Notes: a model not told the origin generated them from the sequence alone. A stretch of DNA of 64,000 nucleotides from Candidatus Shapirobacteria bacterium (GCA_041659325.1 JBAZYN010000002.1:270082-334081); one strand, 5' to 3'; counted from the stretch's first letter, positions 2,589 through 22,648 are shown. Translations and numbers: made by a program.

Positions 2589-2996
2589 TTAAGGTTGCGG
2601 TGGTAGATCCGCTACTCTTAGTTTGGCCTCCAATTGGCTAAGAGATGGTATACCACCACCAAACGGGCCTTCTGGTAGTCCCTCATCACTATGGAGACTA
2701 TCGAGTAATTCACGGATATCACCATTAAAACGTATGGCTTTTATTTCTTCTTCTCCTTCTTTGCCGAACGGTATTTCGGTTAAAGCGTTTTCGTTTTGAA
2801 TAGCAAAGCGGAGCAGTTCTTTTTCTGCCGGTCTGTTTTTTGGGACCAGAAATGTCCTTTCCCCTTCTTCTTGTCCTTCCATTCCTGGTTTATACCCATA
2901 AACAAGGGTGTAATTGGGAGTTTGTTCTATAATAAGACCGTCACTAAAATCCTGGATTTTTTTAACAGATTCCACAGTTTTATTTTGTTCTGACAT
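2589..2996 (-). CDS. Hypothetical protein
   Basis: 135-aa ORF with no recognisable motif. Confidence 0.35.
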   Translation of the reverse strand: MSEQNKTVESVKKIQDFSDGLIIEQTPNYTLVYGYKPGMEGQEEGERTFLVPKNRPAEKELLRFAIQNENALTEIPFGKEGEEEIKAIRFNGDIRELLDSLHSDEGLPEGPFGGGIPSLSQLEAKLRVADLPPQP

Positions 2997-3310
2997 ATTT
3001 TTTTTATTAATAAATATATCCGTCTAACCGGGATGGCTAGCAAGGTGGTTTTAAAAGCAAATACTAGTTGGCTATTTCAAACCTTGTTTCAAGGATACCA
3101 TACTTTATTGTTTAGCCACTCGAAGTTTAGCCTCGCTCATCAATAAATAAGAGAATTGTTTTTTGCAAGTGCTTTTTTTAATTTCAATTTTAATTAGCTT
3201 TATTGTCTCTAGGTATTTTATTTGCTACTACGACAGTTCGTGGGTGGTGGTATTTGAAAGGTAAAAAATAAACAAGTTGTAAAAAATAAATTTTTGGTGA
3301 TAATGTTGAT

Positions 3311-4567
3311 ATGGGCGAAGCATCAGAAGGCGGCAGTGCCGGGGTTAAAAGTGGCATAAAATTATCCAGACGAAAATTTCTTGTTACAACTGGCTTAGCC
3401 GCCGTTGCGGCCGTAGCCCACAAGCCGATAGAAGCCAGCCGGACCCTTTTTGAGATAAATCAAGGTTATGTAACCGGCGAGACCAATACTGGGTCAATTA
3501 CCAGCGAAACTCCCAAGCATATACGGAAAGAGGATATCCCCCCAGAAAATGAATGGTTAAAAAACGCTGACAAGGTCTTATCCAGCGGGATTGCTATCTA
3601 CCAACATTGGCGGAAAGGTAACCCCGATTTACCCTCCCCTCACTATCAGAAACCGGAAAACTATTTAGATGTGCCATCAGTAGCAGTGAATCTCAAGAAG
3701 CAAATACCACATGCCCGGGGAGAACCCGGTAACCCAGATTTTTTTAGAAACTTGCTTATAGATTGTGGCGTCGAAAAATTTGACAAGCCTTATGCCAGAT
3801 TCATCGGTGGATCCGGGGCAAATATCACTAGTCTCCAGGAATTGATAAGTACAGACCCCGGTACGGGTGTTGTCAGAAACATCCGTTATTCAATGTCGGA
3901 AAAGTTTGGTAGCGAATTCGATGTTTTTAGATCTTGTGTCAGCAATTCTTTAACGGAAGAACAGCATAAGTTTATCGCAGATCAATTTCATGATTGGTAT
4001 TTTGGGGCAATGAACTATGTTGAAGATGCCCGAGCCAAAAGCAGTGAACCAATTTCAACTAGCGTTTTATTCGCCTTTTTCCTGCATCAAAATCAGGGAG
4101 ACATTTTATCCAGTGCCTGGGATACTTCGGTTTGGCTGAAAATACTCGCCAGAAACGACCCCGAGGATGGGTTAAAACGTGACCCGAATTATGATCGGGC
4201 CCACTTGGCTACCAGGATATTTAAAGATGAATTCTCTCCCCACCTATCTGCCAATTGGGTAGTTGATCATGTCGGCAGAGACGACGGTGGGCTAAATTTT
4301 GTAGGAGACCCATATAAGATGTCAGAATACAAAGACTTTATGCCGGCGAACCGGGCCGGTGGATTTTATCATGCCTGGAATATTATCGCCCTATCCATGT
4401 GCATGTCTCCATTTTTTATTAAAAGAGCTACTGCCACATACGATGTTCCCATAACGTGGGGTTCTGGGTTCGTGTTTTCAGAGTACGGCCGGGAAAAAAA
4501 CACTGCCGATTTATTGGTTGCCAAACGGGCTCATAAAATAAAGGGGATGCTAAGAAAATATAGTTAG
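3311..4567 (+). CDS. Secreted hypothetical protein with twin-arginine signal peptide
   Basis: N-terminal SRRKFLVTTGLAAVAAVAH matches a Tat motif (S-R-R-x-F-L) followed by a hydrophobic stretch. Length 418 aa. Confidence 0.55.
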   Translation: MGEASEGGSAGVKSGIKLSRRKFLVTTGLAAVAAVAHKPIEASRTLFEINQGYVTGETNTGSITSETPKHIRKEDIPPENEWLKNADKVLSSGIAIYQHWRKGNPDLPSPHYQKPENYLDVPSVAVNLKKQIPHARGEPGNPDFFRNLLIDCGVEKFDKPYARFIGGSGANITSLQELISTDPGTGVVRNIRYSMSEKFGSEFDVFRSCVSNSLTEEQHKFIADQFHDWYFGAMNYVEDARAKSSEPISTSVLFAFFLHQNQGDILSSAWDTSVWLKILARNDPEDGLKRDPNYDRAHLATRIFKDEFSPHLSANWVVDHVGRDDGGLNFVGDPYKMSEYKDFMPANRAGGFYHAWNIIALSMCMSPFFIKRATATYDVPITWGSGFVFSEYGREKNTADLLVAKRAHKIKGMLRKYS

Positions 4568-4856
4568 TTTATTGAACAACGCACGGGTCTTTGCTTTTGA
4601 AACGACCAATAGAAATTACCGCCTCAACACCGCTTCCGCAATCACTACCATCCCAACACGCTGCACCCCGGGCGTTTCAGCCAATGTTAACCCGACTAAA
4701 CTCTTGCCTGGGTGCATATGGAGGCGGTTGGCTTTTGTGCTACTCATATTTCTGAAGAATTCAAAAAATACAATGCAGATAGGTTTAAAATCTTCCTGCT
4801 AATCAGGAGTACAAAGTCTTGACTATTGTCGGGGAAGTATTTAGACTGATTGTAAT

Positions 4857-5252
4857 ATGACAGATTTAGCAAGAAATACCAGAACACTGATAGTATGTTT
4901 TTCGTTAGCCATTTTTGCCCTGATACCTTTGAGGTTTGTGGAAATAAGCCAGGAAGTTTCTGAGGACTATGGGGGAGCCAGTGTTTTGGGTGAAGCACAG
5001 ATGCTCGAAGAGCCAGAAGTGGCACTTCCTAGCGCAGATGAATATGTATCCGGAGAGTTGGAAGCGCCGTATGACGAAATGGACAACGGAGAAGTATCAG
5101 GAGTAACAGATGGGGCAGAGTGCATGCCAGAAGAGCATGTTAGTGAGGCGGTAGCCAGAGTGAATGAAGGTTTGTCCACCGGTTTGTATGCTGATTCTGA
5201 GCAGGCATATGCTGAGATACAGTGGCTAAACGATCAGCTTTGCCGCGAATAA
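4857..5252 (+). CDS. Hypothetical membrane-anchored acidic protein
   Basis: N-terminal transmembrane segment followed by a Glu/Asp-rich tail. Confidence 0.3.
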   Translation: MTDLARNTRTLIVCFSLAIFALIPLRFVEISQEVSEDYGGASVLGEAQMLEEPEVALPSADEYVSGELEAPYDEMDNGEVSGVTDGAECMPEEHVSEAVARVNEGLSTGLYADSEQAYAEIQWLNDQLCRE

Positions 5253-5262
5253 CAGATGGTTT

Positions 5263-6486
5263 TTATCTAATGGTAAGAGTATAAAGGTTTTCTTGGCCTC
5301 CTGAATAGCTTGGAGTTAGGATTACGATTTTACTGCCATCAGCCCAGGGAGTGGTTGATTCAGGATTAAAATTATTGTTAAAAAGGATGTGTTGATTGGT
5401 ATTGTCGTAATCAACAACTTTTATGGCGTTGTCCTGAACGTACATGAGGTTATCCGAGTTTGGAATCCAGGCGATGTTGGTGAGGGCATTGCTGTTTTCG
5501 ATCAGAAAGTTAGTATCTTCCTTCATGTCATAAACATACCAGTTGCCGGGGGTAATATCTCGGCTTTGTTTTTGGATGCTTTGAACCGGTGGTGGGGTAA
5601 TAATATTTTGGGGAAGTTGACGGTTGGTTTTGGCCAGATAGAGTAATTTGTCCTCGCTAGTGGAAAAAGAAATGTGTTTGGCGGATTCGGTGGAGACTAA
5701 TTCTTTTAATTCGAGGGGAATTTTGTCTAATTTGGGCTGATTAATCTGGGCTAGCTGTTTTTCCCAATCCAGATAGATTTGGTCAAGTTGGTAGGTAACA
5801 TCGACGAGCATTTTTGGGGAAAAGACAGAATCAATGGGGATTTGGTAGGTTGCCTTGCCGTTGGTGGCGAGAATGCTTCTGGAGTTGGGTGAAAAAGTGA
5901 ATTTGAAATCAGACCAATTGAGGTAGGCATAGTTTGGCGCGATTTGCCGTGGTTGGTTGCGACCTAAAGGGATGGGGTTGCTGATGGTGTCGAGAATGTA
6001 TAAACCATTATCTTTGGAGGCTGAAGCGGAGGCAACGGCATAAACGATTCTTGATCCGTCGTGGTTGATGGATGGGTTGATGGCGCCGGTAAAAGTCAGC
6101 GGTTTTATGTCTGAAACGGAGCGGAATAACTGAGCATCGGTTTGAACAACTAACTCTTTTTTGATCCGAACTTGCTTTTGCCAGGGAAGATAGCCGTCTT
6201 TTATGATTTTAACCAAGTAATCGCCGGGGGTAAGGTTGATTATGTCGTCGGTAGCAGTGAAGAGACGGTCATCGATGTAGACCGAGGCGCCCTTTGGTTT
6301 TGATGTGGCAGAAAGAAGGCCACTAGCGTTTATGACCGAACCATTTTTCATATCATTTATATTGAGGGTGTAGCCGCGGGCGACAAAAGAAATCATAACG
6401 GTGCCGGAGATGACGAAAAAAAGAACGGAAAGGATAGTGATTAGGCTTTTTTTAGTTGAGTGGTCAGACATATCTGTATTATACAA
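5263..6486 (-). CDS. PEGA-domain protein with TolB-like beta-propeller, membrane anchored
   Basis: N-terminal transmembrane segment. PEGA-like segment VYIDDRLFTATDDIINLTPGDYLVKIIKDGY. C-terminal repeats are TolB/WD-like. Confidence 0.5.
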   Translation of the reverse strand: MYNTDMSDHSTKKSLITILSVLFFVISGTVMISFVARGYTLNINDMKNGSVINASGLLSATSKPKGASVYIDDRLFTATDDIINLTPGDYLVKIIKDGYLPWQKQVRIKKELVVQTDAQLFRSVSDIKPLTFTGAINPSINHDGSRIVYAVASASASKDNGLYILDTISNPIPLGRNQPRQIAPNYAYLNWSDFKFTFSPNSRSILATNGKATYQIPIDSVFSPKMLVDVTYQLDQIYLDWEKQLAQINQPKLDKIPLELKELVSTESAKHISFSTSEDKLLYLAKTNRQLPQNIITPPPVQSIQKQSRDITPGNWYVYDMKEDTNFLIENSNALTNIAWIPNSDNLMYVQDNAIKVVDYDNTNQHILFNNNFNPESTTPWADGSKIVILTPSYSGGQENLYTLTIR

Positions 6487-6579
6487 GCAATAAGAATTGG
6501 TAAAATGGGGTGATGAAATTGTTTAACCCACCCACTAGTATGCTTCGACGGGCAAAGAAATCTGGGGGTAGTATTTAAT

Positions 6580-7581
6580 ATGAAACTTTTTAAAAAACTT
6601 GGAATTGATTTGGGAACAGCAAATAGCGTGGTGTGGGAGGCCGGGGTGGGGATTGTGTTGAATGAGCCGACCGTGGTGGCAGTAGGGGTAGAGGACAGGA
6701 AAGTTTTGGCAGTGGGCAACGAGGCCAAGAAAATGTTGGGAAAAACTCCGGAATACATTGAGATTATATGTCCGATGGAGGAAGGGGTTATCTCTGATTA
6801 TGAGGTGACCGAGGCGATGCTAAGGTATTTTATGAAGCAGGTAATGGGGGTGGGATGGTTTTTTGGGCCCGAGGTGATGATTTGTGTTCCGGCAGGGGTG
6901 ACTCAGGTAGAGCAGAGGGCGGTTTTGGATGCAACTTTGGCGGCCGGAGCAAAAAAAGCATACCTGATAGATGAACCTTTGGCGGCGGCAATCGGGGCAA
7001 AAATCCCGGTGTCTGAAGCTCATGGAAATATGATTATGGACGTGGGAGGCGGGGCGGCGGAGGCGGCGGTGATAGCTTTGGGGGGAGTGGTGACACATAG
7101 GGGGACTAGAACCGGGGGGAAGAAAATGGATATGGCGATTGCTGATTATTTGAGGAAGAAACATAATTTGATTATTGGAGATCAGACGGCGGAAAATATT
7201 AAGATAGTCCTGGGGAGTGCAATAAAGCTTAAGAAAACTGAGACGTTGGAGGTCAACGGGAGGGATTCAATCTATGGTCTACCAAAAAGTATGATGATTG
7301 ACTCAGATGAAATTCATGAGGCGATAAAACCAATACTGGATCTGATAGTTAAAGTTATACGGGATACTTTGGAGGTGACTCCTCCGGAATTGGTGGCAGA
7401 CATAATGGACACGGGAATAGTCTTGAGCGGCGGAACTTCACAACTTCGGAATTTCAATATCCTGGTAACCAGAGAGATAGGTGTCTCGGCGCATGTGGCT
7501 CCGGAGCCACAGTTTTGTGTGATAAAGGGGACCGGGATTGCAATTGAAAATTTGGAAATTTATCATAGAGCGATAAGGTGA
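6580..7581 (+). CDS. mreB: Rod shape-determining protein MreB
   Basis: Actin-fold motifs GIDLGTANS, ...VLSGGTSQL, and full-length similarity to MreB. Confidence 0.9.
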   Translation: MKLFKKLGIDLGTANSVVWEAGVGIVLNEPTVVAVGVEDRKVLAVGNEAKKMLGKTPEYIEIICPMEEGVISDYEVTEAMLRYFMKQVMGVGWFFGPEVMICVPAGVTQVEQRAVLDATLAAGAKKAYLIDEPLAAAIGAKIPVSEAHGNMIMDVGGGAAEAAVIALGGVVTHRGTRTGGKKMDMAIADYLRKKHNLIIGDQTAENIKIVLGSAIKLKKTETLEVNGRDSIYGLPKSMMIDSDEIHEAIKPILDLIVKVIRDTLEVTPPELVADIMDTGIVLSGGTSQLRNFNILVTREIGVSAHVAPEPQFCVIKGTGIAIENLEIYHRAIR

Positions 7582-19506: not shown

Positions 19507-19655
19507 AGTTTTTAAATAATAATGGCCTCGAAGGTCGAGGCGCAAAAAATATAAAAACTATATTTTGCCTCGGTGGGATTTATTTTTGTACCCACTGTCT
19601 TCGGTTTAGTAGAGTATTGTATCACATAATAATAGGGCCGTGATAGGATGAAATA

Positions 19656-20720
19656 GTGAAGAAAATATTGGGCGGGGCGTTGATATTTTTGGGTTTGTCG
19701 GGATTGGCATTGATGGGGTGGAGGGTATGGAGAGGAGAGGGTTTCATAAATCCATTGGTGGGGGAAAGCGATAGGGTGGCTTTGCCTTTGGAGAGGTATG
19801 ATTTTGATAGTTTAAGAAATAGTCTTAAAGTCTTAAAGTCTGAAAATCTAAAAATCGAAAGTCGAAAGTTTGAAATATTGGGAAATATACCTGAAGTAGA
19901 GAGCCGGAGGAAATTAATTACGAATGATCAATTACGAATTACGAATTTTGAAACCAAGAAGTTTAGATTTATGAGTGAGGGGAAGTGGATAACGGGAATG
20001 ATCAATATACCTATGACGCCGGATAGCAGGAAAAAGAGGGCGATTATAATGGTGCGGGGGTATGCAGACAAGCCGGGATACTATACAGGCTTTGGAACGT
20101 GGAAAGCGGCCGATGAGTTTGCAAAACAGGGGTGGGTAACAGTGAGCTTGGATTTTTTAGGTTTTGGAGGAAGTGACGAGGAGAGCCTGGAAATGCTTCA
20201 AGCCAGGTTTGAAAAGGTGGTGGCGGTATTGGATTTGATTGAGACAGTCAAACAATTAGGGTATGTAGACACAAATAATATCGGGATTTGGTCGCATTCA
20301 AACGGGGGGCAAATTGTGTTATCGGTTTTGGAAATCACGGGGGGTAATTATCCAACGGTTATGTGGGCGCCAATGACCAATCCGTTTCCGCAAAGTGTGT
20401 TGGATACGGCGTCGGATTTGGATGACGGAGGAAAAGCGGTGATAAAAGCGGTGGCGGAGTTCCAAAAGCAGTACGATAGTCGAAGGTATGCGTTTGAAAA
20501 TTATTATAAGTGGATTAATGCGCCGGTGTTGATTCAACAGGGGACAGCAGATGAATGGTGTGAGGTGGCGTGGCAAGAGAAAGTAGTCAATGCCTTAAGG
20601 GCAGAGGGGAAAAAGGCGGAATTAGTGATTTACAAAGGTGATGATCATAATTTGAAAAAGAATTGGGATGAGGCGGTAGAGAGGGATGTAGAATTTTTTA
20701 ATACGGAGTTTTTAAACTGA
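19656..20720 (+). CDS. Secreted/membrane-anchored alpha/beta hydrolase (S9/dienelactone-hydrolase-like esterase)
   Basis: N-terminal signal/transmembrane segment. Nucleophile elbow WSHSNGG. In-frame AAGTCTNA and AATTACGA repeat insertions (NSLKVLKSENLKIESRKFE…ITNDQLRITNFE). Confidence 0.6.
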   Translation: MKKILGGALIFLGLSGLALMGWRVWRGEGFINPLVGESDRVALPLERYDFDSLRNSLKVLKSENLKIESRKFEILGNIPEVESRRKLITNDQLRITNFETKKFRFMSEGKWITGMINIPMTPDSRKKRAIIMVRGYADKPGYYTGFGTWKAADEFAKQGWVTVSLDFLGFGGSDEESLEMLQARFEKVVAVLDLIETVKQLGYVDTNNIGIWSHSNGGQIVLSVLEITGGNYPTVMWAPMTNPFPQSVLDTASDLDDGGKAVIKAVAEFQKQYDSRRYAFENYYKWINAPVLIQQGTADEWCEVAWQEKVVNALRAEGKKAELVIYKGDDHNLKKNWDEAVERDVEFFNTEFLN

Positions 20721-20786
20721 CAAAGATTGGCTGTATGTAAAAAATATATAGGTAATGGCTAGTAAAAGCAGTGTTTTTAGGATAAA

Positions 20787-21656
20787 ATGCAGGCAATGAA
20801 AATACCACCGGTTGTTACCTGGCGGGTGACTTCCCGTTGTAATAACGACTGTGCTTACTGTTATGGTCCGGATAAAAATAATACGGAAATGTCTATGGTT
20901 GAGGTAAAAAGGATGTTGAAAATGTTTTATGAAATGGGGGTGAGGGTGATTGATCTGACCGGGGGTGAGCCCCTTTTAAGAAAGGGTTTTGAAGAAATTA
21001 TTGTCCTGATGAAAGAATACGGGTTTGAAATATTTATTGATACTAATGGGGACTATTTTTTTGAATATGATAAGTTGGTGGCAGAAGCTGTCCGAGGGAT
21101 CGGTCTGACAGTTGATTTTCCGGATGAAAATCGAAGATATAAAACACCGGGGAATTTGGGGCGGGTATTGAAAATTTTGGATTACCTGATGACCTTGGAG
21201 CGTAGGCCAATAATCCGGGTGGCGACGGTGGTGACAAGGGATAATTATGACAAATTGTTTCGGATAGGGAATTTGATCAGTAAGTATAAGGTAGACTTGT
21301 GGAAGTTGTATCAGTTTATTCCTCAAAATAAAAATGCCCTTAAAAACCGTAAAGACTTGGAGATTACCAAAAGTGAGTTTTTGGAAGCAACTAATAGTCT
21401 GGAGAGAAAATTCTCAAAAGAGTTTAAGGTAGTGGTGTCAAAAATGGAGGACAGAGATTCCTGTTATTTTTTTGTTGAGTCGGATGGAAGAGTATTTATG
21501 CCGACTCAAAGGGGCGATATATTTGAAGAAGTAATACTTGGGCATATTTTTGACGATGATATTTTTGACAAGTGGAGAAAATCAGTTTCGGTAGATAATT
21601 TTATCCGGAATACTGAAGTTAGCCGGAAATATAGATTTAAAAGGGGGCAAAATTGA
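20787..21656 (+). CDS. Radical SAM protein, viperin-like (candidate prokaryotic viperin, pVip)
   Basis: CNNDCAYC (CxxxCxxC) plus GGEPLL. C-terminal segments LWKLYQFIPQNKN and DSCYFFVESDGRVF align with viperin NPVRWKVFQCLLIEGEN and KDSYLILDEYMRF. No second Fe-S cysteine cluster, so not MoaA/SPASM. Confidence 0.6.
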   Translation: MQAMKIPPVVTWRVTSRCNNDCAYCYGPDKNNTEMSMVEVKRMLKMFYEMGVRVIDLTGGEPLLRKGFEEIIVLMKEYGFEIFIDTNGDYFFEYDKLVAEAVRGIGLTVDFPDENRRYKTPGNLGRVLKILDYLMTLERRPIIRVATVVTRDNYDKLFRIGNLISKYKVDLWKLYQFIPQNKNALKNRKDLEITKSEFLEATNSLERKFSKEFKVVVSKMEDRDSCYFFVESDGRVFMPTQRGDIFEEVILGHIFDDDIFDKWRKSVSVDNFIRNTEVSRKYRFKRGQN

Positions 21657-21668
21657 GGAGATTTTGTA

Positions 21669-21697
21669 TTGACAAAGTTGGTCGGTTTGGATATAGT
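21669..21697 (+). promoter_or_regulatory. Sigma70-like promoter (TTGACA-17-TATAGT) immediately upstream of the NDT-like gene
   Basis: TTGACAaagttggtcggtttggaTATAGT. The -10 ends ~8 nt before ATG 21706, giving a leaderless or near-leaderless transcript. Confidence 0.35.
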
Positions 21698-21699
21698 AA

Positions 21700-22275
21700 G
21701 TGATAATGAAAGTCTATTTTGGGACAAGCCCCAGGATCAAGGAACAGTATCCGGAAGAGGTGACGGAAATATTTGAGCAGATTAAGAAATTGGGTTATAT
21801 TCATACCAGTGATTGGATCAAAAAGGTCGACCCAAAAGATTTTTATAGTATGAATACGGGAGAGTTGGAAGAAAATAATAATCGGTCGATTAGAGATATC
21901 AAAAAGGCGGATATTTGTGTTTTTGAAGCATCAATGCCAAGTTTGTCGGTGGGGTATTTGGTGAACTTGTCACTCGAATTGGGGAAACAGGTGGTGGTTT
22001 TGACCCAAAATAAAAACCCGTCCTTTATGTTCGGACCCATAAAATCCAACAGTTTTAATCTGGTTAGTTATTCGCGTGATACTTTGGCAAGCGAGCTGGA
22101 AAGAGCATTGAAAAAAGCGGTGGAGGGAAGTGATGTCCGGTTTAATTTTTTTGTGTCATCAAAAATATTGAATTACCTCGATTGGGTGGCAAAAAAGAGG
22201 ATGGAGCCAAGGTCGGTCTTTTTGAGAAATTTGATTGAAAAAGAGATGAAAAAGGACAAGGAATTTAAGGGGTGA
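21700..22275 (+). CDS. Nucleoside 2-deoxyribosyltransferase-like (NDT/SLOG Rossmann) domain protein with C-terminal ribbon-helix-helix-like tail
   Basis: KVYFGTSP…ADICVFEAS…SVGYLVNLSLELGKQVVVL resembles the NDT/LOG-like fold. C-terminus RFNFFVSSKILNYLDWVAKKRMEPRSVFLRNLIEKEM is a beta-strand plus two helices (RHH-like). GTG start at 21700, or ATG at 21706. Confidence 0.45.
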   Translation: MIMKVYFGTSPRIKEQYPEEVTEIFEQIKKLGYIHTSDWIKKVDPKDFYSMNTGELEENNNRSIRDIKKADICVFEASMPSLSVGYLVNLSLELGKQVVVLTQNKNPSFMFGPIKSNSFNLVSYSRDTLASELERALKKAVEGSDVRFNFFVSSKILNYLDWVAKKRMEPRSVFLRNLIEKEMKKDKEFKG

Positions 22276-22308
22276 TATAATCTGCTGTTATAGTTTTATG
22301 TAAAAACT

Positions 22309-22566
22309 ATGAGTAATAGATGTGAAGTTCCGTCAGATCAAAGAACAGGATGTAGCTTCTTGGATCGCATTTATTGTCGCCATGGATTGATAGCAGGCCA
22401 TCAGAGAATATGTGATCAGTTTCCATTGGTTAGGTCTTCGAGAGAAAGTGTAAGACAAATATCAGTTTTACCAATGATGGTGAAGGCCTTGATCACAGAT
22501 ACATTTGGTGAAGAAGGGAGGACTGTTCGTGAAAAGGTGGTCGGTTGGACCCGAAATCGTGGTTAA
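22309..22566 (+). CDS. Small Cys/His-rich hypothetical protein
   Basis: C-x9-C-x7-C-x-H…H…C spacing suggests a Zn-binding protein. No homology recognised. Confidence 0.25.
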   Translation: MSNRCEVPSDQRTGCSFLDRIYCRHGLIAGHQRICDQFPLVRSSRESVRQISVLPMMVKALITDTFGEEGRTVREKVVGWTRNRG

Positions 22567-22648
22567 TTTTTTTAGCTTAGGTTTTTATTTTTCTCTTTGG
22601 TTTTGAGCCAGTAAGGGGGTAGTTAAAAGAACTGGTATAATTTAAAAC

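What the first reader, a model, noticed from the sequence alone, without database searches (positions are those of the whole stretch)
20716..22566. Viperin-like radical-SAM gene (pVip) paired with an NDT/SLOG-fold plus ribbon-helix-helix protein instead of the usual nucleotide kinase
ORF 20787..21656 carries the radical-SAM CxxxCxxC (CNNDCAYC) and GGEPLL motifs. Its C-terminal half aligns with viperin-specific segments: LWKLYQFIPQNKN against NPVRWKVFQCLLIEGEN, and DSCYFFVESDGRVF against KDSYLILDEYMRF of RSAD2. It has no auxiliary-cluster cysteines, which argues against MoaA or SPASM enzymes. The next gene (21700..22275) begins with a Rossmann-like nucleoside 2-deoxyribosyltransferase/LOG-like (SLOG) fold and ends in an RHH-like DNA-binding segment. 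That partner is not the kinase typically described beside pVips. Both genes are preceded by the same TGACAAAG(A)TTGG motif (~20718 and ~21669). The second gene has a near-consensus TTGACA-17-TATAGT promoter giving an essentially leaderless start. A small Cys/His-rich ORF follows at 22309..22566. From established viperin biology the radical-SAM enzyme should make 3'-deoxy-3',4'-didehydro (ddh) nucleotides. The NDT/SLOG-RHH protein could process those nucleotides (N-glycosidase or transferase chemistry), or it could act as a nucleotide-sensing transcriptional switch for the locus. Either way this is a non-canonical, possibly undescribed pVip-associated module.
Basis: partly seen in the sequence, partly recalled or inferred. 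Interest (0 to 1): 0.85.

Follow-up and report, generated by a model that had tools for sequence, protein, structure and literature searches.

The report
Divergent viperin-like gene beside nucleotide-sensor regulator
A candidate-phylum (Shapirobacteria) genome carries a divergent relative of the antiviral enzyme viperin, inserted next to a resident protein that joins a catalytically disabled nucleotide-hydrolase fold to a DNA-binding tail. Related bacteria pair near-canonical viperins with catalytically intact versions of that same partner, a combination I found no description of.

Summary
Gene 20787-21656 is a radical-SAM enzyme whose closest relatives by profile, profile-profile comparison and predicted fold are viperins. 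It is a divergent sister-clade member, not a canonical pVip: NCBIfam viperin scores 88 bits against a cut-off of 180, and two viperin-signature residues are lost.

Gene 21706-22275 is a DNPH1/NDT-fold domain fused to a ribbon-helix-helix tail. It lacks the catalytic Glu and Asp, so it is more likely a nucleotide-binding regulator than a glycosidase.

The pairing is only partly supported:
- The partner is a resident gene of a large Patescibacteria family (at least 207 species). In the closest relatives it sits at this position without any radical-SAM gene.
- The window's radical-SAM clade is not next to such a gene in 54 other metagenome loci.
- Family-wide, however, these NDT-RHH genes recur beside nucleotide-acting enzymes. 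One case is a conserved PfkB kinase > near-canonical pVip > catalytic-type NDT-RHH operon. I found no description of this operon in the papers searched.

The shared TGACAAAG motif is at chance level. ORF 22309-22566 is unsupported and lies in a decayed Mur-ligase remnant.

The finding is a new variant of a known kind and is moderately interesting.

The parts
19656..20720 (+). S9/alpha-beta hydrolase gene. In relatives it is the syntenic upstream neighbour, directly abutting the NDT-RHH gene.
   Evidence: Pfam Peptidase_S9 E=1.7e-13. Synteny in L006, L007, L010, L011 and other loci.
20717..20745 (+). Weak promoter-like site (CTGACA-17-AAAAAT). It contains the first TGACAAAGATTGG copy, which overlaps the hydrolase stop codon.
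   Evidence: Matches 9 of 12 positions. The motif is at chance level.
20787..21656 (+). Divergent viperin-family radical-SAM gene (289 aa; the public annotation starts at 20796). CNNDCAYC cluster motif, GGEPLL, WK.YQ, and a C-terminal Y227..G234 signature.
21669..21697 (+). Near-consensus sigma-70 promoter TTGACA-17-TATAGT for the NDT-RHH gene. The ATG lies 9 nt after the -10 box, so the transcript is leaderless or has a very short leader.
21706..22134 (+). DNPH1/NDT-fold domain of the NDT-RHH protein (non-catalytic 'GYL' type). Tyr6, Ser10 and Ser81 are kept; the Glu104 equivalent is Leu87 and the Asp80 equivalent is Ser63.
22135..22275 (+). Ribbon-helix-helix-like tail (DVRFNFFVS strand segment plus two helices). 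It is the most conserved part of the family. Coordinates include the stop codon.
22309..22566 (+). 85-aa ORF. Most likely not a gene.
   Evidence: No family, homologue or RNA signal.
22572..22622 (-). Remnant of the 3' end of a Mur-ligase paralogue (LPPYWLKTKEKNKNLS*). In relatives this gene follows NDT-RHH.
   Evidence: A 28-nt match at 93% identity to L004, plus tblastn matches to the C-terminal tail of the Mur-ligase cluster.

Best explanation
The 20787-21656 gene encodes a divergent member of the viperin branch of radical-SAM enzymes. Its clade is sister to the pVips.

By inference from established viperin chemistry, it binds SAM at the CxxxCxxC [4Fe-4S] cluster and makes a 5'-deoxyadenosyl radical. 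That radical would modify a nucleotide held in the closed barrel formed with the C-terminal extension, most likely by a ddh-type dehydration. The substrate may differ from that of canonical viperins, because two substrate-site signature residues are changed.

The gene is sporadically distributed. Its relatives include fusions to TIR, caspase, WD40 and HD domains, so a role in biological conflict or defence is likely.

In this genome the gene sits as a roughly 1-kb insertion between an S9-type hydrolase gene and a resident gene for a DNPH1/NDT-fold plus RHH protein. That protein belongs to a large Patescibacteria family. The window's copy keeps the Tyr and the 5'-phosphate-binding Ser residues but lacks the Glu nucleophile and the Asp acid. 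It has its own strong leaderless promoter. It is therefore best read as a nucleotide-binding RHH transcription regulator rather than a glycosidase.

Across the family, NDT-RHH genes lie beside changing sets of nucleotide-acting genes. These include radical-SAM enzymes of at least 7 families, near-canonical pVips, PfkB and P-loop kinases, methyltransferases, NUDIX, HAD and PRTase genes. I therefore infer that the protein senses a nucleoside monophosphate and tunes transcription of itself and possibly its neighbour.

Shown: the folds, the residue states, the synteny and the neighbourhood statistics. Inferred: the chemistry, the ligand, DNA binding, and any coupling between the two genes in this window.
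For: Viperin affinity of the radical-SAM gene:
- Best NCBIfam and PADLOC families are viperin/pVip.
- PDB profile hits to viperins extend to position 204, while MoaA hits stop at 134.
- The AlphaFold2 model has pLDDT 95. Foldseek top hits are viperins at TM 0.75-0.78 over the full length; MoaA gives 0.64.
- Of 10 viperin-specific signature columns, 6 are kept unchanged (T, V, W, K, Y, G) and a seventh changes conservatively from K to R.
- hhalign of the window clade against viperins scores 494 (E=1e-72, 270 columns). Against NirJ-like enzymes it scores 300.
- One clade member is followed by an overlapping dTMP-kinase-family gene.
- Fusions to TIR, caspase, WD40 and HD domains are confirmed.

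Insertion next to a resident partner:
- L006, L007, L010 and L011 have the hydrolase abutting NDT-RHH with no radical-SAM gene.
- NDT-RHH occurs in 207 GTDB species and in more than 444 protein clusters.
- The radical-SAM gene has 38.6% GC against 43.2% for the window.

Regulator reading of NDT-RHH:
- DNPH1 fold.
- Leu87 and Ser63 at the catalytic positions.
- RHH profile hits in relatives.
- The tail is the most conserved part of the family.
- Own promoter.
- Nucleotide-themed, variable neighbours.
- 17 of 79 GTDB loci have a radical-SAM gene adjacent to NDT-RHH, and all 18 radical-SAM genes recognised in about 1000 genes of those loci are in these 17 loci.
Against: - The viperin score is far below the curated cut-off (88 against 180) and only 15 bits above the next radical-SAM family.
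- A rough neighbour-joining tree did not place the clade inside the viperins.
- The N222 and R245 equivalents are lost, so ddhNTP synthesis is not assured.
- The gene's surroundings are housekeeping genes, not a defence island.
- No operator could be identified, and DNA binding and ligand binding are untested.
- About a third of the NDT-RHH family keeps the catalytic Glu. The family may therefore be enzymatic at root, and E76, which is nearly invariant, could conceivably substitute for the missing nucleophile.
- The window's radical-SAM clade shows no NDT-RHH neighbour in 54 other loci. Coupling in this window may be nil.
Confidence: 0.45

Rival explanations
1. Pure coincidence of neighbours. 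The radical-SAM gene is a stand-alone, viperin-like defence gene that landed in a variable intergenic slot. The NDT-RHH protein is an unrelated housekeeping regulator or enzyme of nucleotide salvage. There is no functional link in this genome.
For: - The nearest NDT-RHH orthologues (62-63% identity) lack any radical-SAM neighbour.
- None of the 54 metagenome loci of the window's radical-SAM clade has an NDT-RHH gene. L001 and L002 also lack one.
- NDT-RHH has its own promoter.
- Most bacterial viperins are single genes.
Against: - Radical-SAM genes of at least 7 families occupy exactly this slot or abut NDT-RHH genes, in 17 of 79 loci. Every recognised radical-SAM gene in those loci lies next to an NDT-RHH gene.
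- Near-canonical pVips form tight operons with NDT-RHH, overlapping by 4 bp in L091.
Confidence: 0.3
2. The viperin-like enzyme makes ddh-nucleotides and the NDT-RHH protein processes them chemically, by N-glycosidase or base-transfer activity, as a dedicated two-gene system.
For: - DNPH1 is a sanitiser of non-canonical nucleotides with the same fold.
- pVip-adjacent NDT-RHH copies in L018, L021, L031, L090, L091 and L092 keep the GYE nucleophile. One of them passes the Pfam NDT threshold at 34.1 bits.
Against: - The window's copy has Leu at the nucleophile position and Ser at the general-acid position.
- It belongs to the non-E subtype. That subtype mostly follows the hydrolase or methyltransferases, not viperins.
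Confidence: 0.12
3. Housekeeping nucleotide metabolism rather than defence. In these reduced genomes the viperin-like radical-SAM enzyme, together with kinases and NDT-RHH, forms a salvage or modification route for nucleosides and nucleotides. NDT-RHH acts as a PutA-like enzyme-regulator.
For: - The locus lies among pyrG, ribosomal and murein genes.
- Patescibacteria pVip operons sit between recR, cysS and ftsZ and recur across lineages.
- Neighbours include PfkB, P-loop kinases, NUDIX, HAD, PRTase-like, GTP-cyclohydrolase-II-like and CYTH-like genes.
Against: - The window's radical-SAM clade is rare (8 close clusters) and patchy. Its wider relatives are fused to TIR and caspase domains, which is typical of conflict systems.
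- No known salvage route needs viperin chemistry (my own knowledge).
Confidence: 0.13
4. SAM by-product handling. NDT-RHH senses or removes adenosine-type by-products of SAM enzymes (5'-deoxyadenosine, S-adenosylhomocysteine). This would explain its linkage to both radical-SAM enzymes and methyltransferases.
For: Radical-SAM genes of many unrelated families, and two class-I methyltransferase families, are the commonest variable neighbours.
Against: - The conserved Ser10 and Ser81 correspond to the 5'-phosphate-binding site of DNPH1. 5'-Deoxyadenosine has no 5' phosphate.
- Kinase, NUDIX and PRTase neighbours fit nucleotides better.
Confidence: 0.07

Closest known systems
Prokaryotic viperins (pVips; NCBIfam NF038283, PADLOC pVip), which are ddhNTP synthases
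   Same: - Radical-SAM core and no auxiliary cluster.
- C-terminal extension closing the barrel.
- W-K of the RWK motif, the K220 equivalent (as Arg), and the Y..P.G signature.
- Best profile, profile-profile and fold matches are viperins.
   Different: - Less than half the curated cut-off score.
- The N222 and R245 equivalents are replaced by Ala and Leu.
- It forms a separate clade whose members include TIR, caspase, WD40 and HD fusions.
- Product and antiviral activity are unknown.
pVip plus nucleotide-kinase gene pairs (viperin/CMPK2-type linkage)
   Same: One clade member (L002) is followed by an overlapping thymidylate-kinase-family gene. Patescibacteria pVips are preceded by a kinase gene.
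   Different: The window has no kinase nearby. The Patescibacteria operons use a PfkB-family (ribokinase-like) kinase rather than a P-loop NMP kinase, and they add an NDT-RHH gene.
DNPH1/Rcl (2'-deoxynucleoside 5'-phosphate N-hydrolase) and nucleoside 2-deoxyribosyltransferases
   Same: Same fold (TMt 0.82-0.84). The N-terminal VYF..S.R motif, Tyr24 and the phosphate-binding Ser98 equivalents are conserved.
   Different: The Glu104 nucleophile is replaced by Leu and the Asp80 equivalent by Ser in the window's copy. An RHH tail is fused. Only about a third of the family keeps the Glu.
RHH regulators fused to an enzyme or sensor domain (PutA, NikR, MetJ-type logic; from my own knowledge)
   Same: A ribbon-helix-helix DNA-binding module joined to a small-molecule-binding domain, with its own promoter.
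   Different: The RHH is C-terminal and the sensor is an NDT/DNPH1 fold. I am not aware of a described example. DNA binding is untested.
pVip genes linked to HicA/RelE toxins (PMC10865869)
   Same: Another documented case of pVips with non-kinase partners.
   Different: The partners there are RNase toxins, not an NDT-fold regulator.

Membership tests
Viperin / pVip | Radical-SAM CxxxCxxC cluster motif and GGE SAM-binding motif | tested here: met
   CNNDCAYC and GGEPLL are present. Pfam Radical_SAM scores 68.5 bits.
Viperin / pVip | Score at or above the curated family cut-off (NF038283, 180 bits) | tested here: not met
   88.4 bits. Patescibacteria pVips score 161-177 bits.
Viperin / pVip | Partial (beta-alpha)6 barrel plus C-terminal extension, with full-length similarity to solved viperins | tested here: met
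   AlphaFold2 pLDDT 95. Foldseek hits 9dfn, 6q2p and 7n7h give TM 0.72-0.78 over 288-303 columns.
Viperin / pVip | Viperin-specific conserved residues (columns at least 80% conserved in 113 viperins and not conserved in other radical-SAM enzymes) | tested here: inconclusive
   Kept: the K220 equivalent (as Arg144), T147, V148, W172, K173, Y227 and G234. Lost: the N222 equivalent (Ala146), the R245 equivalent (Leu171), and Pro replaced by Ser232.
Viperin / pVip | Closer to viperins than to other radical-SAM families | tested here: met
   hhalign scores 494 against viperins and 300, 198 and 170 against the NirJ-like, MoaA-like and C groups. The rough neighbour-joining tree was unresolved.
Viperin / pVip | Produces ddhNTP and protects against phage | not testable with these tools
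   Needs enzymology, LC-MS and plaque assays.
MoaA (GTP 3',8-cyclase) | C-terminal auxiliary [4Fe-4S] cysteine triad and full-length match | tested here: not met
   There is only one Cys outside the N-terminal motif. MoaA profile and PDB alignments stop at about residue 134-225, with scores near 70 bits against cut-offs of 231-325. Foldseek gives TM 0.64 and rmsd 7.5.
NDT / DNPH1 N-glycosidases | Rossmann-like NDT fold | tested here: met
   All top-50 Foldseek hits are DNPH1/Rcl. 23 of 40 relatives hit Pfam PF05014, but the window protein scores only 14.4 bits against a cut-off of 28.8.
NDT / DNPH1 N-glycosidases | Catalytic triad Tyr24 / Asp80 / Glu104 (human DNPH1 numbering, PMC10483697) | tested here: not met
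   Tyr6 is present. The Asp80 equivalent is Ser63 and the Glu104 equivalent is Leu87. In the family, position 87 is Leu in 50% and Glu in 34% of sequences.
NDT / DNPH1 N-glycosidases | 5'-phosphate-binding Ser98 and N-terminal loop | tested here: met
   Ser81 is in 228 of 232 sequences. Ser10 is in 212 of 232 (invariant among the 40 sequences of alignment A2). The VYFGTSPR motif aligns with VYFCGSIR.
LOG / SLOG | PGGxGTxxE motif and LOG-type fold match | tested here: not met
   The motif is absent from the sequence. The fold hits are DNPH1, not LOG.
Ribbon-helix-helix DNA-binding domain | Beta-strand plus two helices, with a profile match | tested here: inconclusive
   Helices 154-167 and 171-185 follow the conserved DVRFNFFVS segment. 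RHH_3 hits 7 and RHH_1 hits 2 of 40 relatives; the window protein itself has no hit. DNA binding is not testable here.
pVip-kinase two-gene system | Adjacent nucleotide-kinase gene | tested here: not met
   No kinase lies near the gene in the window. One is present in the relative L002.

The most novel reading that the evidence does not exclude
DNPH1-fold plus RHH proteins are a previously undescribed partner class of viperin-family enzymes in Patescibacteria. In the full version, a three-gene operon encodes a PfkB nucleoside kinase, a pVip and a catalytic 'GYE' NDT-RHH. The kinase feeds the pVip. The partner then senses the ddh-nucleotide and hydrolyses it, and represses the operon until it is needed. 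That would give a self-limiting antiviral nucleotide circuit. The window would hold a derived variant, in which a divergent viperin-like enzyme has been placed under a paralogue that has lost catalysis and kept only the sensor and repressor function.
Probability: 0.3. Interest if true: 0.8.

Novelty: new variant of a known kind. Interest (0 to 1): 0.6.

Why it matters
Viperins are among the few immune enzymes shared by humans and bacteria, and their known bacterial partners are kinases and RNase toxins.

A conserved link to a DNPH1-like protein with a DNA-binding tail would suggest how cells control or clear chain-terminating ddh-nucleotides. Self-toxicity of these nucleotides is an open issue.

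It would also give a function to a large, unannotated protein family present in at least 207 candidate-phyla species.

The divergent clade, with its changed substrate-site residues and its TIR and caspase fusions, may make a different antiviral nucleotide.

For this window specifically, the lesson is more modest. The gene pair is probably an insertion next to a resident regulator, not a dedicated two-gene system.

Tried and rejected
- **MoaA, QueE or SPASM identity of the radical-SAM gene: rejected.** There is no auxiliary cysteine cluster, the alignments are short, and the fold scores are lower.
- **ORF 22309-22566 as an ncRNA, tRNA or tmRNA: rejected.** No Rfam or ARAGORN hit. Folding z-scores are -1.4 and -0.5.
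- **ORF 22309-22566 as a conserved small protein: rejected.** No homologues in 147 loci.
- **TGACAAAG(A)TTGG as an operator or insertion footprint: rejected as at chance level**.
- **Search for a conserved operator upstream of about 100 NDT-RHH genes.** Only -10 boxes and subclade-specific palindromes were seen by eye. No formal motif search was done.
- **Neighbour-joining tree.** The first attempt failed because of saturated distances. The second was unresolved at the deep nodes. I replaced it with signature columns and hhalign.
- **Small 137-151-aa proteins near some distant relatives, which looked NDT-like by eye.** Only one has a weak Pfam Nuc_deoxyri_tr2 hit (E=0.0013). hhalign and the PDB search gave nothing for the other, so these were not used as evidence.
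- **Viral contigs.** The window's radical-SAM clade has no relative in IMG/VR.
- **Literature.** No paper in the library links viperin with deoxyribosyltransferase, DNPH1 or PfkB.

Full report
**Setting.** The window comes from a Candidatus Shapirobacteria (Patescibacteria/CPR) genome. Both focal proteins are 100% identical to proteins of a 335-kb MAG contig. The locus reads pyrG (+), rplL and rplJ (-) with an Rfam L10 leader, an S9-type alpha/beta hydrolase at 19656-20720, the radical-SAM gene at 20787-21656, the NDT-like gene at 21700/21706-22275, a 373-bp spacer, then ddl and murF. These surroundings are housekeeping genes, not a defence island.

**The radical-SAM gene.**
- Among 18,950 NCBIfam models the best match is viperin_w_prok, covering positions 2-250 of 281. 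The score is 88.4 bits against a cut-off of 180. The next families (tungsten-cofactor maturase, MoaA) reach 69-73 bits.
- The PADLOC pVip model gives 106 bits over 4-240 of 262.
- For calibration, Patescibacteria pVips found later score 184 bits in PADLOC and 161-177 in NCBIfam over the full model, with the runner-up family near 90 bits. Unrelated radical-SAM enzymes score 45-73 bits on the N-terminal half only.
- A profile of the gene and its seven close homologues hits solved viperins up to position 204. MoaA alignments stop at 134.
- An AlphaFold2 model with pLDDT 95 matches viperin structures best, at TM 0.72-0.78 over about 290 columns. MoaA gives 0.64 with rmsd 7.5. SkfB and BlsE come close, at 0.73-0.74.
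- I extracted the columns that are at least 80% conserved in 113 viperins and not conserved in other radical-SAM enzymes. The window clade keeps T, V, W, K of the RWK motif, and the Y and G of a C-terminal Y..P.G signature. Its K220 equivalent is Arg. It has lost the Asn (Ala146) and the Arg of RWK (Leu171).
- In profile-profile comparison the window clade scores 494 against viperins (E=1e-72, 270 columns). It scores 300 against NirJ-like enzymes, and viperins against NirJ-like enzymes score 305. A rough neighbour-joining tree did not resolve the deep nodes.

I conclude that this is a divergent sister clade of the viperins. It is viperin-like in fold and partly in active site, but it fails the curated membership threshold and differs at two likely substrate-contacting positions. 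Synthesis of ddhNTP is therefore inferred, not shown.

**Distribution of the radical-SAM clade.**
- Only eight close clusters exist among 5.8 billion proteins.
- An exhaustive profile search finds 177 relatives at E<=1e-30. Many are multidomain: TIR plus radical-SAM plus two Lrp/AsnC-like modules, caspase plus radical-SAM plus Lrp-like, WD40 plus TIR plus radical-SAM, and radical-SAM plus HD. These architectures are typical of conflict systems.
- Among contexts of close homologues, L003 is syntenic with the window and includes the NDT gene. L002 has an overlapping dTMP-kinase-family gene, the classical pVip-kinase layout. L001 has neither.
- In 54 metagenome loci of the clade (27-50% identity), none has an NDT-RHH gene.
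- There are no relatives in IMG/VR viral contigs.

**The partner protein.**
- Its homologues start at MKVYF, so the real start is ATG 21706.
- The AlphaFold2 model (pLDDT 89) has a Rossmann-like domain whose 50 best PDB matches are all DNPH1/Rcl (TMt 0.82-0.84). Two C-terminal helices follow, preceded by the segment DVRFNFFVS.
- That tail is the most conserved part of the family. It hits the RHH_3 or RHH_1 profiles in 9 of 40 relatives.
- The phmmer alignment to rat Rcl is gap-free across the active-site loop.
- The DNPH1 literature names Tyr24, Asp80 and Glu104 as the catalytic residues and Ser98 as a phosphate ligand (PMC10483697). On that basis the window protein keeps Tyr (Y6), the N-terminal VYF..S.R motif and Ser98 (S81). 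It has Leu87 in place of the Glu nucleophile and Ser63 in place of Asp.
- Across 232 family members, position 87 is Leu in 50% and Glu in 34%.

There are thus two subtypes. The E-type has 'GYE/GHE' and looks catalytically competent. The non-E type includes the window's copy and is better read as a ligand-binding domain.

**Is the pairing meaningful?** The family is large: more than 444 clusters, and 207 of the GTDB species representatives, nearly all Shapirobacteria, Woesebacteria or other Patescibacteria.
- The closest orthologues (L006, L007, L010, L011; 62-63% identity) have the hydrolase gene directly abutting or overlapping the NDT-RHH gene, with no radical-SAM gene. The window's radical-SAM gene is therefore an insertion of about 1 kb. 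Its GC content is lower: 38.6% against 43.2% for the window.
- Against pure coincidence, 17 of 79 GTDB loci have a radical-SAM gene immediately next to an NDT-RHH gene. All 18 recognised radical-SAM genes in about 1000 genes of these loci are in that position, and an unlabelled one sits upstream of the NDT-RHH genes in L025.
- These radical-SAM genes belong to at least seven unrelated families: viperin-like, near-canonical pVip, a MoaA-like group with a degenerate cluster motif, and several others. Some are on the opposite strand.
- Other recurrent neighbours are PfkB kinases, P-loop kinases, two class-I methyltransferase families, HAD, NUDIX, PRTase-like, GTP-cyclohydrolase-II-like and CYTH-like genes, and further NDT-RHH paralogues, up to four in tandem.
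- The subtypes differ in their upstream neighbours. E-type copies follow a radical-SAM gene in 13 of 34 cases and a P-loop kinase in 8 of 34. Non-E copies follow the hydrolase in 17 of 68 cases, methyltransferases in 14 of 68, and the MoaA-like radical-SAM gene in 4 of 68.

**A conserved viperin operon elsewhere.** The viperin family of L018 and L031 has many members that JGI annotates as 'radical SAM domain-containing protein 2'. In three of four further contigs examined the order is PfkB kinase > pVip > NDT-like gene of 188-191 aa, with a 4-bp overlap in L091. The fourth contig has PfkB > pVip only. All pVip-adjacent copies (L018a, L021a, L031a, L090, L091a, L092) carry the RHH tail and the intact GYE/GHE motif. 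The second copy in tandem arrays is of the non-E type. L090's copy passes the Pfam NDT threshold. I found no paper linking viperins with NDT, DNPH1 or PfkB partners. The described partners are kinases, present beside about 12% of bacterial viperins, and HicA/RelE toxins.

**Regulatory signals.**
- TTGACA-17-TATAGT at 21669-21697 is real (11 of 12 positions) and conserved in L003 and L004.
- Nearly all family members have a -10 box 7-15 nt before the ATG. The leaderless reading is therefore well supported.
- The 'shared' motif is weak. The two copies differ by an indel. TGACAAAG is essentially the -35 region and occurs six times in the window against 1.9 expected. It is not upstream of L003's radical-SAM gene. 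Some twenty other two-copy repeats of similar length occur in the same 2.1 kb.

**The small ORF.** ORF 22309-22566 has no family, homologue or RNA signal. On the minus strand, 22572-22622 encodes LPPYWLKTKEKNKNLS*. This is the conserved C-terminal tail of a Mur-ligase paralogue that follows NDT-RHH in relatives. The spacer is therefore most likely a decayed gene.

**Verdict.** The window holds a divergent viperin-like enzyme inserted beside a resident, probably non-catalytic, nucleotide-binding RHH regulator. A dedicated two-gene enzymatic module is unlikely here. The follow-up did uncover a broader and apparently undescribed association between viperin-family enzymes, PfkB kinases and catalytic DNPH1-fold-RHH proteins in Patescibacteria. 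That association gives the finding its interest.

Noticed in passing
Loci L018 (3624-6570), L031 (2232-6582), L090 (3147-5464), L091 (2895-5502), L092 (3077-5443): A conserved operon, PfkB-family kinase > near-threshold pVip (NF038283 161-177 bits) > DNPH1-fold-RHH protein with an intact GYE nucleophile. It lies among housekeeping genes (recR, cysS) in several Patescibacteria lineages. I found no description of it in the papers searched.
   Followed up: partly
Proteins P0165, P0167-P0169, P0172, P0175, P0177, P0179, P0148, P0155, P0159, P0191 (relatives of window 20787-21656): The viperin-like radical-SAM domain is fused to TIR_2, caspase (Peptidase_C14), WD40 or HD domains. In most cases two Lrp/AsnC-like (HTH plus AsnC_trans_reg) modules follow at the C-terminus. 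These look like a conflict-system architecture.
   Followed up: partly
L004 4960-5979, L013 120-1133, L014 4903-5928, L015 4968-5984: A MoaA-like radical-SAM protein (133 bits to archaeal MoaA, cut-off 325) with a degenerate cluster motif, CNYNCSFPxxxxxWCH. It occupies the same slot between the S9 hydrolase and NDT-RHH.
   Followed up: partly
window 22572-22622 (-): Remnant of the C-terminal tail of a Mur-ligase paralogue that follows NDT-RHH in relatives. It implies gene decay in the 22276-22648 spacer.
   Followed up: yes
L019 5069-7388; L017, L031, L058, L083: Tandem arrays of two to four NDT-RHH paralogues, mixing catalytic-type (Glu) and non-catalytic-type copies.
   Followed up: partly
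window 19509-19622 (-): An Rfam ribosomal protein L10 leader (47 bits, gathering threshold 44) lies upstream of rplJ. It is the only Rfam hit in the 64-kb window.
   Followed up: no
About 100 NDT-RHH upstream regions (for example L022, L023, L043, L047, L066): Almost every NDT-RHH gene has a TATAAT-like box, often TGnTATAAT, only 7-15 nt before its ATG. This suggests leaderless or near-leaderless mRNAs as a family trait. One subclade shares the palindromic TATACTACCCTATAGATAATAATTATAAT.
   Followed up: partly
L138-L142 and L145 (about 2700-6930); L100 1366-1821; L117/L118 about 2816-3229: Distant relatives of the window's radical-SAM gene sit in a conserved cluster: methyltransferase > 132-aa protein > radical-SAM > 188-aa protein > 142-aa protein. 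The small 137-151-aa proteins look NDT-like by eye, but only one has a weak Pfam Nuc_deoxyri_tr2 hit (E=0.0013).
   Followed up: partly
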